A stretch of 64,000 bases of DNA, from NCBI GenBank assembly GCA_964617905.1, contig CAZTZZ010000001.1, forward strand, positions 28,080 through 92,079, read 5' to 3'. The position numbers and the translations under genes are program-made. How positions within the stretch are numbered: position 1 is the first letter of the stretch; each line of letters starts with the position of its first letter. This document shows, in pieces, positions 6,175 through 43,869 of the stretch. The DNA is from an uncultured Ignavibacteriaceae bacterium (GTDB lineage Bacteria > Bacteroidota > Ignavibacteria > Ignavibacteriales > Ignavibacteriaceae). A model generated the notes under the pieces. The model saw nothing but the letters and a program-made list of their open reading frames with translations. It searched no databases and had not been told where the DNA came from.

Positions 6175-6906
6175 ATGTTGGAAATCGAAAAAAAAATTCA
6201 GGAAAATAAACTTCAATTATTAGGAAAACTGACTGCAAGTTTAATACACGAAATCCGAAATCCCCTGTCTGCTATTAAATTAACTTTTGATTTTCTAAAG
6301 TTAATTGAAACCTCGCTTCCTGAAGAAGCCATTGAATCTGTAGAACTTAGTAAAGAAGCACTTAACCGCATTCAATATCTTATTGATAACGTTCTGACAT
6401 TTTCACGAAAAAATGCAAAATATCAGGATAATTGTTCTTTAAATGAAATATCAAGAACCGCTGTTAATTTAATTAAATCGAGCGCAAAGAAAAAAAATAT
6501 AAAAATTGAGCTGGAATTAGATAACACTTTGCCAAATGGATGTTTTGATAAAAACAAAATCCTTCAAGTTTTTATTAATTTAATTACGAATGCTTTAGAA
6601 TCCTGCAGTCAAGGAGGAAAAGTTAAAATTAAAACCAGAGGGGATGACCCTGATTACATAATATGGGAAGTTATTGACAACGGTGAAGGTATTAACGAAG
6701 AAATTAAAGAAAAAATATTTCAGGATTTTTACACAAGTAAAGAAAATGGTACAGGTTTAGGTTTAAGTGTCTGCAAAATGCTATTACAGCCATATCAGGC
6801 AAAACTTGATTTTATAAGTACTGAGGGTGTAGGAACAAAATTTTTAATAATGTTTAATCCAAACTTAATGCAGATTAATGATGAAGTTCAAAGTATTAAT
6901 AGTTGA
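6175..6906 (+). CDS. Minimal cytoplasmic sensor histidine kinase (DHp + CA only), FlrB/FleS/FlgS-like by context
   Basis: H-box LTASLIHEIRNPLSAI with the His at about residue 25. N-box INLITNALES, G1 VIDNGEGI, G2 GTGLGLSV. No TM or input domain. It overlaps the downstream sigma-54 activator gene. Confidence 0.85.
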   Translation: MLEIEKKIQENKLQLLGKLTASLIHEIRNPLSAIKLTFDFLKLIETSLPEEAIESVELSKEALNRIQYLIDNVLTFSRKNAKYQDNCSLNEISRTAVNLIKSSAKKKNIKIELELDNTLPNGCFDKNKILQVFINLITNALESCSQGGKVKIKTRGDDPDYIIWEVIDNGEGINEEIKEKIFQDFYTSKENGTGLGLSVCKMLLQPYQAKLDFISTEGVGTKFLIMFNPNLMQINDEVQSINS

Positions 6907-8275
6907 TGATGATGATCTCGTATGTATTTCATTACGAAAATTATTAGTTAAACTTGGCTATGAAGTTGAAATATGTTTAAATGCAGGTGAAATATTTAAA
7001 ATAACTCAAGATTTTGAACCCGACATTATTCTCCTCGACATATATCTTACCACTCACAACGGACTTCATCTTTTAAAAGAGTTAAGGAAAAAGTTTTATA
7101 ATATACCTGTTATAATGATTACGGGTTATGCCGATGTGAAGATTGCTGTTTCTGCAATTAAATCCGGTGCTTTTGATTTCCTTTTAAAACCGATTGATAT
7201 CGAACAACTTCAAATTGTAATAAACAAAGCCCTCGATAATTTAACTTTAAAAGCTGAGGTAAATAAGCTGCACGAAATTATGAAGGGTGATGTTCTTACT
7301 AAAGATGTATTTGGGAAAAGTTTAAAAACACAAAAGCTTTTGAATTATGTAGAAAAACTTGCTGCAAGTTCCGATACCACTATTCTGTTACAAGGTGAAA
7401 GTGGAACCGGGAAGGAAGTTTTTGCAAAATACATTTATCAGAACAGTCCAAGAAAAAATGATACCTTTATCCAAATTAATTGTTCGGCAATTCCAAAGGA
7501 ACTTGCTGAAAGTGAATTATTCGGGCATGAAAAAGGGGCTTTTACTGGGGCTTCACAGAAAACCAAACTTGGTAAATTTGAATTAGCTAATGGCGGAACT
7601 ATTTTGTTGGATGAAATAGGTGAACTTTCTCTTGATCTGCAGGTTAAATTACTCAGGGTTTTACAAGAAAAAAGGTTCTACAGATTAGGGGGAGAAAAAG
7701 AAATTTCGGTTGATGTTAGAATTTTAGCAGCAACAAACAGAAATTTAGAGGAAGAAGTTAAAAAAGGAAATTTTAGAGAGGATTTATACTACAGGTTAAA
7801 TGTTGCAAGAATTCAAGTTCCACCTTTACGTGAAAGAAAAGAAGACATTCCTGTTTTAGCTTTTTCATTTCTATCCGAATTTGCTAAAAAGCTAAACAAA
7901 AATGTAAAAAACATTGATCAAGATGCAATAAAAAAGCTTAAAGAATATCCTTGGAAGGGTAATATCCGTGAATTAAAAAATATTATGGAAAGAGCTGCTC
8001 TGTTGCTCGATGAAGAAGAACTGAAGGAACACCATCTTTGTTATTTATTGGATGTAGGAGGTGAAGAAAATAAGGACGATTCGACAAATTTTGAACTAAA
8101 AATTCCCCCTAAAGGCGTAAAAGTTGATTTAGTACTTCGTACATTAATACAACAAACATTGAAGATAACAAAAGGAAATCAAGTAAGGGCTGCTAAAGTT
8201 TTAGGACTATCCAGATCAAAGCTCAGATATAGGATGGAACAACTTAATATTGAAGTAACAAAAAATGTTAATTAA
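6878..8275 (+). CDS. Sigma-54-dependent response regulator (REC + AAA+ + Fis-type HTH), FlrC/FleR/FlgR-like by context
   Basis: REC (VLIVDDDD..ILLDIYL..LLKP), Walker A GESGTGKE, GAFTGA motif in ELFGHEKGAFTGA, EDLYYRLNV, and C-terminal HTH NQVRAAKVLGLSRSKLRYRM. Confidence 0.9.
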   Translation: MMKFKVLIVDDDDLVCISLRKLLVKLGYEVEICLNAGEIFKITQDFEPDIILLDIYLTTHNGLHLLKELRKKFYNIPVIMITGYADVKIAVSAIKSGAFDFLLKPIDIEQLQIVINKALDNLTLKAEVNKLHEIMKGDVLTKDVFGKSLKTQKLLNYVEKLAASSDTTILLQGESGTGKEVFAKYIYQNSPRKNDTFIQINCSAIPKELAESELFGHEKGAFTGASQKTKLGKFELANGGTILLDEIGELSLDLQVKLLRVLQEKRFYRLGGEKEISVDVRILAATNRNLEEEVKKGNFREDLYYRLNVARIQVPPLRERKEDIPVLAFSFLSEFAKKLNKNVKNIDQDAIKKLKEYPWKGNIRELKNIMERAALLLDEEELKEHHLCYLLDVGGEENKDDSTNFELKIPPKGVKVDLVLRTLIQQTLKITKGNQVRAAKVLGLSRSKLRYRMEQLNIEVTKNVN

Positions 8276-14179: not shown

Positions 14180-14303
14180 ATGCTATCGTTTTTCTTCCAG
14201 TTGGCTAATATTGCACAGCAAAAGGTAAAAATCGGGACGAATTAGACACATAATAAGTCTTTTTTAACGGCATTAAATTTGAATAATAATCAACAGGTTT
14301 ATC

Positions 14304-14330
14304 TAAAAAAAATTAAAAAAAATACGATAA
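14304..14330 (+). promoter_or_regulatory. Candidate sigma-28 promoter upstream of the HEAT-cheR-cheY-cheZ-cheA-cheB operon
   Basis: TAAA (14304-14307), N15, TACGATAA (14323-14330). It is intergenic and ends 51 nt upstream of the TTG start at 14381. The A-rich context makes the -35 match less informative. Confidence 0.5.
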
Positions 14331-20017: not shown

Positions 20018-21098
20018 TTTTGAAAATAATAAAATTAAAGCATTAGTAGTGGATGATTCCGCATTTATGAGGAAATCCATTTCTATTTTACTTGAGAGTG
20101 ACCCAGATATTAAAGTTGTTGCCACGGGCAGAGACGGAGAAGAGGGGGTTGAACTGGCAAAAACCCTACGCCCTGATATAATTACACTTGATATTGAAAT
20201 GCCTCGCATGGATGGCTTGACTGCATTAAAAAAAATTATGTCTGAGTGTCCAACTTCTGTTATAATGTTGAGTTCGCTAACAACAGAAGGAGCAGATGTT
20301 ACTATAAAAGCTCTTGAATACGGCGCAGTTGATTTTATTCCTAAAGAATTATCTTTTGTTAATGTTAATATTGTTAATATCAAAGATGAATTAATTAGAA
20401 AAATAAAAGAAATAGTAAAACATCAAGCATTAAAAAACAGGTTAAAAAGAATTCAAAAATTAAATCCTTCTTCTACGCCTGCACGACATTATAGACAAAT
20501 TGAATTACCCAAAATAAGTTATTCAGCAATAGCTCTTGGAATTTCAACAGGAGGTCCATTTTCACTTCAAAAAATAATACCTGTTCTTTCAAACAAAATT
20601 AAATGTCCTATTTTTATAGTACAGCATATGCCTCCCAAGTTTACTAAGTCATTAGCCGATAGGTTAGATGGATTAACTCAGCTGGAAGTTAAAGAAGCTG
20701 AGGATGATGAGACAGTTAGAAATGGTGTTGTCTATATTGCTCCGGGCGGATATCACATGACGGTAGTTAAAAATTCAATAGGACAAAACAGAATTAGAAT
20801 TTCCGATGAACCTGCTACAACTTTAAATAAACCTTCTGTAGATATTATGACTAAATCAGTTATAGACATTTATGGTAAATATACTTTGGGAGTAATAATG
20901 ACCGGTATGGGAAAAGACGGGCTAAAAGGCATTTCTAAATTAAAATCTTTAGGCGGTTATTGCATTGCACAAGATGAAAAAACTTGTGTAGTTTACGGTA
21001 TGCCCAAGTCAATTGTTGATGCTGAACTGGCCGATGTTATAGCACCACTTGAAAAAATACCAAGAATTATTAATGAGGCTGTTGTTAATGAAAAATAA
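20007..21098 (+). CDS. cheB: Chemotaxis methylesterase CheB (REC + esterase)
   Basis: REC ALVVDDSAFMRKSI..IITLDIEMPRMDG. Esterase motifs GISTGGP, VQHMPP and GMGKDG. The TTG start overlaps the cheA end by 11 nt. Confidence 0.9.
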   Translation: MKSNFENNKIKALVVDDSAFMRKSISILLESDPDIKVVATGRDGEEGVELAKTLRPDIITLDIEMPRMDGLTALKKIMSECPTSVIMLSSLTTEGADVTIKALEYGAVDFIPKELSFVNVNIVNIKDELIRKIKEIVKHQALKNRLKRIQKLNPSSTPARHYRQIELPKISYSAIALGISTGGPFSLQKIIPVLSNKIKCPIFIVQHMPPKFTKSLADRLDGLTQLEVKEAEDDETVRNGVVYIAPGGYHMTVVKNSIGQNRIRISDEPATTLNKPSVDIMTKSVIDIYGKYTLGVIMTGMGKDGLKGISKLKSLGGYCIAQDEKTCVVYGMPKSIVDAELADVIAPLEKIPRIINEAVVNEK

Positions 21099-21333
21099 TT
21101 TTGAAGAACCTGTTTTTAATGAACTTAGTTATGACTCTATAAATAGTTCAGGCAATTATATTAAAAAAGAAAATGTAAGAGTTGTAGGTAAAACTAAAAT
21201 AAAAATTGAAGAAGAAAGTCACCAAGGGGTTAAAATAATTTTGAAAAAAGATGAAGATGAATCAATAAAAGAAATAAAATTTGTATGTTCCTGCGGACAA
21301 ACGAAAATGATACTTTTAAACTATTCTGAATAA
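21088..21333 (+). CDS. Hypothetical small protein (81 aa)
   Basis: ATG at 21088 (MKNNFEEPVF...) overlaps the cheB stop by 11 nt. The ORF-track start at 21049 would overlap by 50 nt. No recognisable motif apart from a C-terminal FVCSCGQTK. Confidence 0.35.
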   Translation: MKNNFEEPVFNELSYDSINSSGNYIKKENVRVVGKTKIKIEEESHQGVKIILKKDEDESIKEIKFVCSCGQTKMILLNYSE

Positions 21334-21410
21334 TAATTTCCAACTGAACAACTTTAGCCAATTTTTATACACACACACCTAATAATTAAGCAAAACAACA
21401 ACTCTTTAAA

Positions 21411-21425
21411 TGGCATTTAATTTGA
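21411..21425 (+). promoter_or_regulatory. Candidate sigma-54 promoter upstream of flgB (non-canonical -12)
   Basis: TGGCAT-TTAAT-TTGA has the GG-N10-G spacing of TGGCAC-N5-TTGC, but with A in place of the -12 C. It ends 34 nt upstream of the flgB ATG, in a 125-nt gap. Confidence 0.4.
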
Positions 21426-21458
21426 CTCTCTAATAGAGAATCAAAAATAGGTCAAAAT

Positions 21459-33560: not shown

Positions 33561-33639
33561 AAAATCGACCATGTGTAGAATAATAACCAACCCTTATTGA
33601 AAAAAACTTCCATATTTATAAAATATTCTAATTATTTAT

Positions 33640-33654
33640 TGGCATATCAATTGA
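33640..33654 (+). promoter_or_regulatory. Candidate sigma-54 promoter upstream of fliL (non-canonical -12)
   Basis: TGGCAT-ATCAA-TTGA has the same architecture as the flgB site. It ends 28 nt upstream of the fliL ATG and lies downstream of the flgE terminator. Confidence 0.4.
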
Positions 33655-33681
33655 TTCAAGAATTAAAAAAAACAAAGTATT

Positions 33682-42064: not shown

Positions 42065-42891
42065 TGATTGGACAAACCGAAAGAATATTAGAATTAAAAA
42101 ATTTAAGTAACAACCAAAATGAAACCGTGGGAAATAAAATTATTGCATTTACTTCCGGTAAGGGAGGTACAGGCAAAACTTTTCTTTCTATAAACATAGC
42201 CTATTCTTTAGCTGAACTGGGGAAAAAAATTTTATTTGTCGACCTGGATTCAAATCTGTCTAATGCTAATATAATGCTGAACATAGTTGCTGAAAAAACA
42301 ATTTATGATTTTTATACTGAAAAAAAATTATTGAAAGATATAATTACAAAAGTGAATCCTAATTTACATTTTATTTTTGGAGATTCGGGTAAACTTAATT
42401 ACCCGGATGCTCATGAAAATTTAATTTCCAAATTATACAATCAGATTATTTTCTTACAAAATTCCTACGATTTTGTTTTTTTTGATACCGGCTCTGGTGC
42501 CGGTAGAAGTATAATAAATGTTTTATTAAAAGCAGAAAAAGTTGTTATTGTAACATCACCCGAGCCGACAGCCGTAATGGATTCCTATGTAATGTTAAAA
42601 TTGTTAAGTGCTTCCGAATATAAAGGTGAAAAATTTGTAATAGTAAACAAAAGTTTTGGGGAAAATGACAAGCAATCGACTTTTAATAATCTTTCCAATG
42701 CTTCAGAACATTTCTTAAAAAAATCTATTTCGTATTTAGGTGGTGTCAAATTTGATGGTATTGCCAGTAAGTCAATTATAGAGCAGGAATTAGTTGTTAA
42801 AAAATATCCTGAATCAGAAATCACAAGGCAAATTAGAGTAATCGGAAGCAGTATTATTGAATTCACTCATATGGCTAATATTCTCCATTAG
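42064..42891 (+). CDS. flhG: MinD/ParA-type ATPase FlhG (FleN/YlxH)
   Basis: Deviant Walker A FTSGKGGTGKTFLSINIA, directly after flhF. Confidence 0.88.
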   Translation: MIGQTERILELKNLSNNQNETVGNKIIAFTSGKGGTGKTFLSINIAYSLAELGKKILFVDLDSNLSNANIMLNIVAEKTIYDFYTEKKLLKDIITKVNPNLHFIFGDSGKLNYPDAHENLISKLYNQIIFLQNSYDFVFFDTGSGAGRSIINVLLKAEKVVIVTSPEPTAVMDSYVMLKLLSASEYKGEKFVIVNKSFGENDKQSTFNNLSNASEHFLKKSISYLGGVKFDGIASKSIIEQELVVKKYPESEITRQIRVIGSSIIEFTHMANILH

Positions 42892-42969: not shown

Positions 42970-42984
42970 TGGTATGGTATTTGA
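42970..42984 (+). promoter_or_regulatory. Candidate sigma-54 promoter upstream of the small ORF-fliA operon (non-canonical -12)
   Basis: TGGTAT-GGTAT-TTGA has the same spacing as the flgB and fliL sites. It ends 29 nt upstream of the ATG at 43013. Confidence 0.35.
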
Positions 42985-43012
42985 CTTTTTACTATAAAAT
43001 AAAAAGACGAAC

Positions 43013-43242: not shown

Positions 43243-43869
43243 ATGAATAACGCAACTTTATGGGCTGAATTTAAATCCTCACCGAGCGTAGATCTAAAAA
43301 AACAAATTGTTTTAAATTATGTAAAGTTAGTCCATTATGTAATTCATTATTCAAAATTTGCAACACCTGGCATACTAGACGAAAGAGATTATTTTCAATT
43401 TGGTATTGAAGGATTAAGTGAAGCTATTGACCGTTTTGATCCGGACTTCGGAACAAAGTTCGAAACTTATGCAATACAAAGAATTAGGGGTAAAATTATT
43501 GATAAGTTGAGAAAAATTAAGATTAAAAAAAAGAAGACAATTGAAGACCAAAAACCTTCCTATTATAATAATGTTTCATTAACAAGTCCTGTTGACGGTG
43601 AAGACGGATATATGCTCTACGAGATTATTCCGGAAGACACAGAATTGCCAGATGAAACAACAGAAAAAAATGAAGCAAAGGAAATTTTACTTGAAGCAAT
43701 TAAAGATATGGAAGAAAGGGATAGAATGATAATTACTCTATATTATTATGAAAACCTTACATATAAAGAGATTGGTAAACTTCTTAATATTTCTGTTTCC
43801 CGTGTTTCGCAAGTACATACAAGAATAGTGAAAATGTTAAAAACTAAACTTCAATATTTAAATGCATAA
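43243..43869 (+). CDS. fliA: Flagellar sigma factor FliA (sigma-28)
   Basis: Region 2 FETYAIQRIRGKIIDKLR. Region 4.2 HTH YYYENLTYKEIGKLLNISVSRVSQVHTRIVKMLK. Confidence 0.9.
   Translation: MNNATLWAEFKSSPSVDLKKQIVLNYVKLVHYVIHYSKFATPGILDERDYFQFGIEGLSEAIDRFDPDFGTKFETYAIQRIRGKIIDKLRKIKIKKKKTIEDQKPSYYNNVSLTSPVDGEDGYMLYEIIPEDTELPDETTEKNEAKEILLEAIKDMEERDRMIITLYYYENLTYKEIGKLLNISVSRVSQVHTRIVKMLKTKLQYLNA

What the first reader, a model, noticed from the sequence alone, without database searches (positions are those of the whole stretch)
21411..21425. Three identically spaced TGG(C/T)AT-N5-TTGA motifs head the three large structural operons
Three sites share the motif: 21411 (flgB operon), 33640 (fliL operon) and 42970 (small ORF-fliA operon). 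All have the GG-N10-G spacing of sigma-54 promoters. They end 34, 28 and 29 nt upstream of the first start codon, each in one of the few sizeable intergenic gaps.

An NtrC-type sigma-54 activator and its kinase are encoded at 6175-8275.

The oddity is the -12 element. All three read TTGA(C/T)T instead of TTGC, so the normally well-conserved C is A. Either the host RpoN tolerates or prefers this variant, or the motif belongs to a different sigma factor.
Basis: partly seen in the sequence, partly recalled or inferred. Interest (0 to 1): 0.6.

Follow-up and report, generated by a model that had tools for sequence, protein, structure and literature searches.

The report
Sigma-54 flagellar promoters, variant -12 box
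The three sites are real, evolutionarily conserved sigma-54-type promoters of the flagellar operons of an uncultured Ignavibacteria bacterium; each has a shared upstream activator site, and the odd A in place of C in the second promoter box is normal for this bacterial order.

Summary
TGGYAT-N5-TTGA sits at 21411, 33640 and 42970, 29-34 nt before flgB, fliL and the small ORF-fliA operon. The window has five matches (0.44 expected). The two extra ones lie inside fliD and cheA and are codon coincidences.

The genome is an Ignavibacteriaceae MAG (Bacteroidota) with one intact rpoN and about ten enhancer-binding activators. All three promoters are conserved at the same place in 26-30 related genomes each, with an invariant 5-nt spacer.

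The base after TTG is not a conserved C in this order:
- flgB: A 31, C 8, T 8, G 6.
- fliL: A 22 of 30.
- fliA operon: C 12, A 9, T 7.
- Genome-wide: it equals background composition.

Another Bacteroidota family keeps TTGC in 23 of 24 hsp20-dnaK promoters.

New here: an imperfect 16-bp dyad (TGgcTAAT/ATTAGCCA) lies 50 or 82 nt upstream of each promoter in 100 of 111 orthologous regions. A fourth unit precedes the che operon. The neighbouring REC-AAA+-HTH activator co-occurs with flagella.

This is a known design (FlrC/FleR/FlbD-like) with a lineage-specific relaxed -12 box. The scan has noted similar modules on other DNA.

The parts
21411..21425 (+). Sigma-54-type promoter of the flgB operon (TGGCAT-N5-TTGA); predicted start near 21437
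   Evidence: Conserved 36-52 nt before flgB in 26-28 of the 29 readable upstream regions in family f1 (26 by the regex) and in 26 of 27 f3 genomes.
33640..33654 (+). Sigma-54-type promoter of the fliL operon (TGGCAT-N5-TTGA); predicted start near 33666
   Evidence: Conserved in 30 of 30 genomes of the order; the base after TTG is A in 22.
42970..42984 (+). Sigma-54-type promoter of the small-ORF-fliA operon (TGGTAT-N5-TTGA); predicted start near 42996
   Evidence: Conserved about 270 nt before fliA in 29 of 30 genomes. The TGGTA form is itself conserved.
21341..21360 (.). Upstream dyad element (CANNTG-N3-..TTAGCCA), a candidate enhancer; 50 nt gap to the -24 TGG
33570..33589 (.). Upstream dyad element, a candidate enhancer; 50 nt gap to the -24 TGG
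42868..42887 (.). Upstream dyad element (CATATGGCTAATATTCTCCA), overlapping the last codons of flhG; 82 nt gap to the -24 TGG
14198..14217 (.). Fourth copy of the dyad element (CAGTTGGCTAATATTGCACA) before the che operon
14268..14282 (+). Candidate fourth sigma-54-type promoter (CGGCAT-N5-TTTGA). It lies 50 nt after the dyad and 98 nt before the HEAT-protein/che operon. A sigma-28-like motif follows at 14304-14329.
   Evidence: Conservation in relatives was not tested.
6175..6906 (+). Histidine kinase with no sensor domain detected (HisKA + HATPase_c only, 243 aa)
6878..8275 (+). Response-regulator enhancer-binding protein (REC, AAA+ with GAFTGA at residue 220, Fis-type HTH_8); candidate activator of the promoters
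   Evidence: An ortholog is present in 31 of 31 flgB-positive family genomes and absent from 28 of 30 flgB-negative ones.
43243..43869 (+). fliA (sigma-28), second gene of the third operon; the link to the late, sigma-28-type promoters

Best explanation
The three sites are enhancer-dependent sigma-54 (RpoN) promoters that start the flgB-flgE, fliL-flhG and small-ORF-fliA operons.

Proposed mechanism (inferred unless marked):
1. The sensor-less kinase (6175-6906) phosphorylates the REC-AAA+-HTH activator (6878-8275).
2. The activator binds as a dimer or higher oligomer to an imperfect 16-bp dyad, TGgcTAAT/ATTAGCCA. The dyad lies 50 nt (flgB, fliL, che) or 82 nt (fliA) upstream of the -24 TGG. 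The difference of 32 bp is about three helical turns.
3. The activator then remodels the closed sigma-54 holoenzyme complex at TGGYAT-N5-TTGA.
4. FliA made from the third operon drives the late sigma-28 promoters.

The A in place of the -12 C is a tolerated, sub-consensus form of the -12 box. In the order Ignavibacteriales the C is not under general selection, whereas TGG, the spacer and TTG are. The likely consequence is a weaker or less tightly locked closed complex.

Shown here: the sequences, their conservation, the geometry, the gene content and the co-occurrence of activator and flagella. Inferred: RpoN dependence, the activator-to-dyad assignment, and the effect of A at -12.
For: - One intact rpoN and about ten activators are present.
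- The promoter is conserved with an invariant 5-nt spacer in front of the orthologous operons: flgB, fliL 30 of 30, fliA operon 29 of 30.
- TGGYAY-N5-TTG is 4.4-fold enriched in intergenic DNA, and 24 sites are oriented before ORFs.
- The same motif precedes dnaK, hsp20 and clpB. These genes have sigma-54-type promoters with mapped start sites in F. psychrophilum.
- The base after TTG in this genome is A 9, T 10, C 3, G 2, which equals background. At flgB it is A 13, G 6, C 4, T 3 in family f3. At fliL it is A 22, T 4, C 2, G 2.
- P. putida sigma-54 transcribes TTGGTA/TTGAAT templates in vitro, though the strongest templates carry TTGCAT.
- The dyad is found in 100 of 111 orthologous upstream regions with a tight gap of 50-51 or 82 nt. 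Only 16 other copies occur in 759 kb of the same loci. In the window it has 2 exact matches against 0.13 expected.
- The activator carries GAFTGA and an HTH_8 domain. It tracks flagellar genes across 61 family genomes and lies beside fliS in the cluster.
Against:
- The -12 C, part of the classical GG/GC signature that H377, S379 and R383 of sigma-54 read in Klebsiella (PMC9770992), is absent.
- At fliL, A is kept in 73% of genomes against about 37% background. This hints at selection for A rather than mere tolerance.
- Family f2 keeps TTGCA at the fliA-operon promoter, so the picture depends on both promoter and lineage.
- Assigning the dyad to this particular activator rests only on location and co-occurrence. 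Related genomes are not independent samples.
- ORF calls outside the window come from a crude in-house caller.
Confidence: 0.75

Rival explanations
1. These are sigma-54 promoters, but the sigma-54 of Ignavibacteriales has changed its -12 specificity. It no longer reads the C, or it prefers A/T. TTGA is then the optimal box here, not a tolerated weak one.
For: - C shows no enrichment over background in this genome.
- A is over-represented at flgB and fliL.
- Region I of RpoN in families f1-f3 reads PQQIQYQKLLQLNTL, where other Bacteroidota have L or I at the position of Klebsiella I23. That residue helps hold the flipped -12 base.
Against: - The DNA-reading helix (MDISTISRV) is identical in a family that keeps TTGC in 23 of 24 promoters.
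- Family f2 has the same region I but keeps TTGCA at the fliA-operon promoter.
- An unmodified Pseudomonas sigma-54 already uses TTGAAT.
- The region I difference is a single correlation across one clade.
Confidence: 0.17
2. The conserved TGGYAT-N5-TTGA is a site for another sigma factor (sigma-28, the Bacteroidota primary sigma, or an ECF sigma).
For: The missing -12 C first suggested this. TTTG is also the core of the Bacteroidota -7 box, TAnnTTTG.
Against: - No TAnnTTTG is present at any of the three sites, and the TA is not conserved in relatives.
- No sigma-28 motif lies at the sites.
- The conserved letters and the fixed spacer are those of -24/-12 promoters.
- The same motif precedes chaperone genes known to be sigma-54-type in the phylum.
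Confidence: 0.04
3. The motif is a conserved operator for a repressor or other DNA-binding protein, and the true promoters lie elsewhere in the gaps.
For: Conservation alone cannot tell a promoter from an operator, and a second conserved element (the dyad) sits nearby.
Against: - The motif is not symmetric.
- It occurs in front of many unrelated genes genome-wide, always oriented towards the gene.
- No other conserved promoter-like block lies between it and the start codons.
Confidence: 0.04

Closest known systems
FlrB/FlrC (Vibrio), FleS/FleR (Pseudomonas) and FlgS/FlgR (Campylobacter, Helicobacter): two-component control of sigma-54-dependent rod and hook operons
   Same: A soluble kinase and a REC-AAA+ activator are encoded inside the flagellar cluster. 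-24/-12 promoters precede flgB-type and fliL-type operons. Sigma-28 takes over for the late genes.
   Different: The -12 box reads TTGA, not TTGC. fliA itself and probably the che operon sit behind the same promoter type. The dyad sequence is different. The lineage is Bacteroidota (Ignavibacteria). No master regulator of the FlrA/FleQ kind was looked for.
Caulobacter crescentus FlbD with ftr enhancers at class III/IV flagellar promoters
   Same: A dyad enhancer lies several helical turns from a sigma-54 promoter and is reused at several flagellar operons.
   Different: The sequence is unrelated (an AT-rich TGgcTAAT/ATTAGCCA dyad). Here a cognate kinase gene lies directly upstream of, and overlaps, the activator gene. 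No binding was tested.
Secondary sigma-54 motifs TTGGTA / TTGAAT recovered in vitro with Pseudomonas putida holoenzyme (PMC11997794)
   Same: The same letters appear: TGGTA at -24 and TTGA at -12.
   Different: In P. putida they are minor, weaker motifs from a random library. Here they are the prevailing natural form and are conserved across an order.
Sigma-54 regulon (motif SM4) of Flavobacterium psychrophilum (PMC9723704)
   Same: Same phylum. Chaperone genes (dnaK, clpB and others) lie behind -24/-12 promoters, as in this genome.
   Different: The authors describe that motif as typical. In this genome the equivalent promoters read TTGG or TTGA. Flavobacteria have no flagella.

Membership tests
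Sigma-54 (RpoN) -24/-12 promoter | GG doublet within TGGCAC-like -24 box | tested here: met
   TGGCAT, TGGCAT and TGGTAT at the three sites. TGG plus A at position 5 is invariant in the orthologous promoters that match the search pattern.
Sigma-54 (RpoN) -24/-12 promoter | Fixed spacing between the two boxes (GG-N10-G) | tested here: met
   All orthologous flgB, fliL and fliA-operon promoters recovered with a fixed-spacer pattern carry the 5-nt spacer: 26 of 27, 30 of 30 and 29 of 30 regions.
Sigma-54 (RpoN) -24/-12 promoter | GC doublet in the -12 box (TTGC) | tested here: not met
   The G is conserved and the C is not. All three window sites carry A. Genome-wide, C is 3 of 24, which equals background. 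C is a minority at flgB and fliL in the order.
Sigma-54 (RpoN) -24/-12 promoter | rpoN gene in the genome | tested here: met
   One 478-aa RpoN with an RpoN box lies on the same contig, about 29 kb beyond the window's end.
Sigma-54 (RpoN) -24/-12 promoter | AAA+ enhancer-binding activator with a GAFTGA loop | tested here: met
   The protein at 6878-8275 has REC, Sigma54_activat with GAFTGA at residue 220, and HTH_8. About ten such proteins are encoded in the genome.
Sigma-54 (RpoN) -24/-12 promoter | Transcription starts about 12 nt after the -12 box and depends on rpoN | not testable with these tools
No genetics is possible on a MAG.
Enhancer (upstream activator site) of an NtrC-family activator | Dyad-symmetric site shared by the co-regulated promoters | tested here: met
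   An imperfect 16-bp dyad is present in 100 of 111 orthologous regions of the three operons. The best genome-wide matches all lie in the flagellar region of contig C1.
Enhancer (upstream activator site) of an NtrC-family activator | Position upstream of the promoter with helical phasing | tested here: inconclusive
   The gaps are 50-51 nt (flgB, fliL, che) and 82 nt (fliA). The difference is about 3 turns. Two sites outside the window have gaps of 58-59 nt, which fits phasing less well.
Enhancer (upstream activator site) of an NtrC-family activator | Bound by the activator | not testable with these tools
   Only co-occurrence and synteny of the activator with flagellar genes are available.
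Sigma-28 (FliA) promoter | TAAA-N15-(G/T)CCGATAA | tested here: not met
   The matches in the window lie elsewhere (2293, 28397, 31159, 63876). None is at the three sites.
Bacteroidota primary-sigma promoter | -7 box TAnnTTTG | tested here: not met
   No match lies within 60 nt upstream or 50 nt downstream of any of the three sites. The TA is not conserved in relatives.

The most novel reading that the evidence does not exclude
The sigma-54 of the order Ignavibacteriales may have lost base-specific reading of the -12 C. Possible routes are changes in region I (Gln at the Klebsiella I23 position) or in how the fork junction is held. A at this position would then be positively kept at flagellar promoters to set how tightly the closed complex is locked. 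That would be a lineage-wide change in the grammar of a promoter class thought to be nearly universal.
Probability: 0.17. Interest if true: 0.6.

Novelty: new variant of a known kind. Interest (0 to 1): 0.42.

Why it matters
Sigma-54 promoters are usually found by searching for GG-N10-GC. In Ignavibacteriales that rule would miss most real sites, including the whole flagellar regulon and the chaperone genes. The 2025 cross-phylum survey read here (PMC12316311) itself states limited power for promoters that deviate from the consensus.

The data give three things:
- A ready-made regulon map for a little-studied flagellated branch of Bacteroidota: kinase, activator, dyad site, four to six promoters, then sigma-28.
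- A natural series of -12 variants (A, T, G, C) at orthologous promoters.
- A same-phylum contrast family with strict TTGC.

Together these could be used to ask what the -12 C contributes to closed-complex locking. The regulatory design itself is ordinary.

Tried and rejected
1. **Reading-helix hypothesis.** RpoN here has MDIS where proteobacteria have MHES (H377 and S379 read the GC). I took this as the cause of the lost C. It is rejected as sole cause: the change is present in all 35 RpoN sequences recovered from 40 sampled Bacteroidota genomes (34 read DIS/DVS/DLS, one DDS), one or two per family, including a family that keeps TTGC in 23 of 24 promoters.
2. **Iterated weight matrix.** The matrix drifted onto tRNA genes (TGGCAGAGC...). 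I went back to strict pattern counts.
3. **Divergent small gene.** The conserved TTTAGCCA(T/C/A) upstream of flgB looked like an ATG/GTG/TTG start codon of a divergent gene. The frames are only 7-43 codons long and are not conserved, so it is a DNA element. It proved to be half of the dyad.
4. **Pattern search over five genomes.** This was meant to tabulate the -12 base, but the trailing N is dropped by the tool, so it was uninformative.
5. **dnaK promoter in a second family of the class (f5).** No consistent sigma-54 site was found, so where in the class the relaxation begins is unresolved.
6. **Papers.** Campbell et al. 2017 (Aquifex sigma-N bound to DNA) is not held. The supplement of PMC12316311 has no Bacteroidota promoters among its validated set, and the matrix file I opened holds protein motifs.

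Full report
**What is in the sequence.** The three sites are as described:
- TGGCATTTAATTTGA at 21411
- TGGCATATCAATTGA at 33640
- TGGTATGGTATTTGA at 42970

They end 34, 28 and 29 nt before the start codons of flgB, fliL and a 74-aa ORF that precedes fliA. The pattern has five matches in the window, all on the + strand, against 0.44 expected.

They encode the conserved peptides IGISFD and FGIKVD. In four relatives each, the synonymous positions change so that the motif disappears. They are coincidences of coding sequence.

**Whose genome.** The window is part of contig C1 of a 2.63-Mb, 104-contig, 32.7% G+C assembly. The closest RpoN genes (85-90% identity) are from Ignavibacteriaceae/Ignavibacteria MAGs, that is Bacteroidota.

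The genome has one intact rpoN: 478 aa, RpoN box ARRTVAKYR, E = 5e-84 to solved sigma-54 chains. It encodes about ten strong PF00158 activators.

The window encodes a large flagellar and chemotaxis cluster. The proteins identified here are:
- flagellin, FliD, an FliS-family protein
- a kinase and an activator
- CheW, CheA, CheB
- FlgB, FlgE, FliL
- FlhF-like and FlhG-like ATPases
- FliA

**Are they promoters?** Phylogenetic footprinting says yes. TGGCAY-N5-TTGx lies 36-52 nt before flgB in most of the 29 family genomes with a readable upstream region (26 by the regex). It is present in 26 of 27 genomes of a sister family, and before fliL in 30 of 30 genomes of the order.

TGGTAY-N5-TTGx lies about 270 nt before fliA, in front of the small ORF, in 29 of 30 genomes. 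The spacer length never varies. The flanks are otherwise poorly conserved.

In this genome TGGYAY-N5-TTG has 92 hits. Of these, 34% fall in the 7.7% of DNA that is intergenic, and 24 point at an ORF start within 200 nt. Targets include dnaK, hsp20, clpB, T9SS-tail proteins, a LytTR regulator and a glycosyltransferase. The chaperone genes are the ones behind start-site-mapped sigma-54-type promoters in Flavobacterium psychrophilum (PMC9723704).

No sigma-28 motif and no Bacteroidota -7 box is present at the three sites.

**The odd -12 box.** In this genome the base after TTG at the 24 oriented sites is A 9, T 10, C 3, G 2. The C share of 12.5% equals the intergenic background of 12.7%.

| Promoter set | Base after TTG |
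|---|---|
| flgB, family f1 | about A 18, T 5, C 4 |
| flgB, sister family f3 | A 13, G 6, C 4, T 3 |
| fliL, order | A 22, T 4, C 2, G 2 |
| fliA operon, order | C 12 (mostly one family, as TTTGCA), A 9, T 7, G 1 |
| dnaK, family f1 | mixed |

By contrast, in another Bacteroidota family (40-55% G+C) the hsp20-dnaK promoter reads TGGCAY-N5-TTGC in 23 of 24 genomes. The relaxation is therefore a property of Ignavibacteriales, not of the phylum. It varies with promoter and lineage.

Published work puts this in context:
- H377, S379 and R383 of Klebsiella sigma-54 read the GC, and the G-C pair next to the melted base is thought to matter for the fork junction (PMC9770992).
- Yet P. putida holoenzyme transcribes random templates carrying TTGGTA and TTGAAT. 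TTGCAT dominates only among the strongest templates (PMC11997794).

TTGA is therefore a usable, probably weaker, box even for a canonical sigma-54.

**Is RpoN different?** All 80 close relatives and all 35 RpoN sequences recovered from 40 sampled Bacteroidota genomes (one or two per family) carry D at the Klebsiella H377 position (MDISTISRV or a near variant, against proteobacterial MHESTISRV). This holds equally in the family with strict TTGC, so it cannot explain the loss of C.

The only clade-specific differences I found are in region I. Families f1-f3 have PQQIQYQKLLQLNTL, where other Bacteroidota have L or I at the Klebsiella I23 position and P where f1-f3 have N. This is one correlation over one clade. 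Family f2 shares it and still keeps TTGCA at one promoter. I treat it as a lead only.

**A shared upstream site.** Aligning the orthologous upstream regions revealed a second conserved block at all three promoters: CANNTG-N3-AATATTARCCA. This is an imperfect 16-bp dyad, TGgcTAAT/ATTAGCCA.
- It is present in 100 of 111 regions. Only 16 other copies occur in 759 kb of the same loci.
- The gap from its CCA to the -24 TGG has a median of 50-51 nt at flgB and fliL and 82 nt at the fliA operon. The difference is about three helical turns.
- In the window it lies at 21341-21360, 33570-33589 and 42868-42887.
- A fourth copy lies at 14198-14217. Exactly 50 nt later comes CGGCAT-N5-TTTGA, in front of the HEAT-protein/che operon.
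- The two best genome-wide matches outside the window lie 18-23 kb upstream on the same contig. They precede sugar-modification genes (DegT, WbqC, formyltransferase, glycosyltransferases) and are followed 58-59 nt later by TGGAAT/TGGCAT-N5-TAGC.

**Which activator?** The protein at 6878-8275 has REC, an AAA+ domain with GAFTGA, and a Fis-type HTH. It overlaps a 243-aa kinase for which only HisKA and HATPase domains were detected.

Its receiver domain finds clear orthologs (53-89% identity, E ≤ 1e-42) in 32 of 60 other family genomes. Paralogs stop at 41% identity. Orthologs are present in all 31 genomes that have flgB and absent from 28 of the 30 that lack it. At least one exception has fliL. 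In relatives the ortholog lies beside fliS in the flagellar cluster. Related genomes are not independent, so this is supportive rather than statistical proof.

**Verdict.** The system works like FlrBC/FleSR/FlgSR or FlbD-ftr control of flagellar middle genes, and fliA lies under the same control.

It fails one textbook membership criterion, the -12 C, and it fails it order-wide. I therefore file it as a variant of a known kind.

Earlier notes of this scan describe similar promoter-plus-palindrome modules in Marinimicrobia (also with TTGA) and in other Ignavibacteria. I did not check those.

Noticed in passing
window 21049-21333: The 94-aa ORF after cheB is real coding sequence. Its C-terminal KEIKFVCSCGQTK..LDYSE and its stop codon are conserved in most family genomes just upstream of the flgB dyad element. 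It has no Pfam match.
   Followed up: partly
window 14268-14329: The che operon gap carries both a sigma-54-like CGGCAT-N5-TTTGA (with a dyad 50 nt upstream) and, 22 nt further on, a sigma-28-like TAAA-N16-ACGATAA. This suggests possible dual control.
   Followed up: partly
G000 contig C1 5526-5620 and 9641-9731 (outside the window; L366:2526-2620 and 6641-6731): The two best copies of the dyad in the genome precede sugar-modification genes (DegT, WbqC, formyltransferase, a 1822-aa multi-glycosyltransferase). They are followed by TGGAAT/TGGCAT-N5-TAGC boxes. This may be a flagellin glycosylation island in the same regulon.
   Followed up: partly
RpoN, L001:547-1983, and loci L002-L151: RpoN from 35 sampled Bacteroidota genomes of about 34 families, plus all 80 close relatives, has D (usually MDISTISRV) where proteobacteria have MHESTISRV, so the His reported to read the -12 GC is Asp. 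Five other sampled sequences could not be read. One such family still keeps TTGC.
   Followed up: partly
G000 contig C10 169-2442: Three tandem units each combine TGGYAT-N5-TTTGC with a shared leader (..AAGTTATAGTACCGAGGACTAAAGTTGTAC..) and a 188-aa ORF with no Pfam match. An activator fragment lies next to them (C10:3116-3448).
   Followed up: no
G000 contig C3 47059-47314: Two sigma-54-like boxes lie 234 nt apart on the minus strand. Each is followed by a similar ..TATGAAAATAGTT.. stretch, and no ORF of 70 aa or more lies downstream. These may be small RNAs or small proteins.
   Followed up: no
G000 C4:15888, C15:32552, C3:76516: dnaK, hsp20 and clpB are preceded by sigma-54-type boxes reading TTGG, TTGG and TTGA. 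The Bacteroidota chaperone regulon under sigma-54 therefore seems to extend to Ignavibacteria.
   Followed up: partly
They arise from codons of the conserved peptides IGISFD and FGIKVD and are not conserved as DNA motifs.
   Followed up: yes
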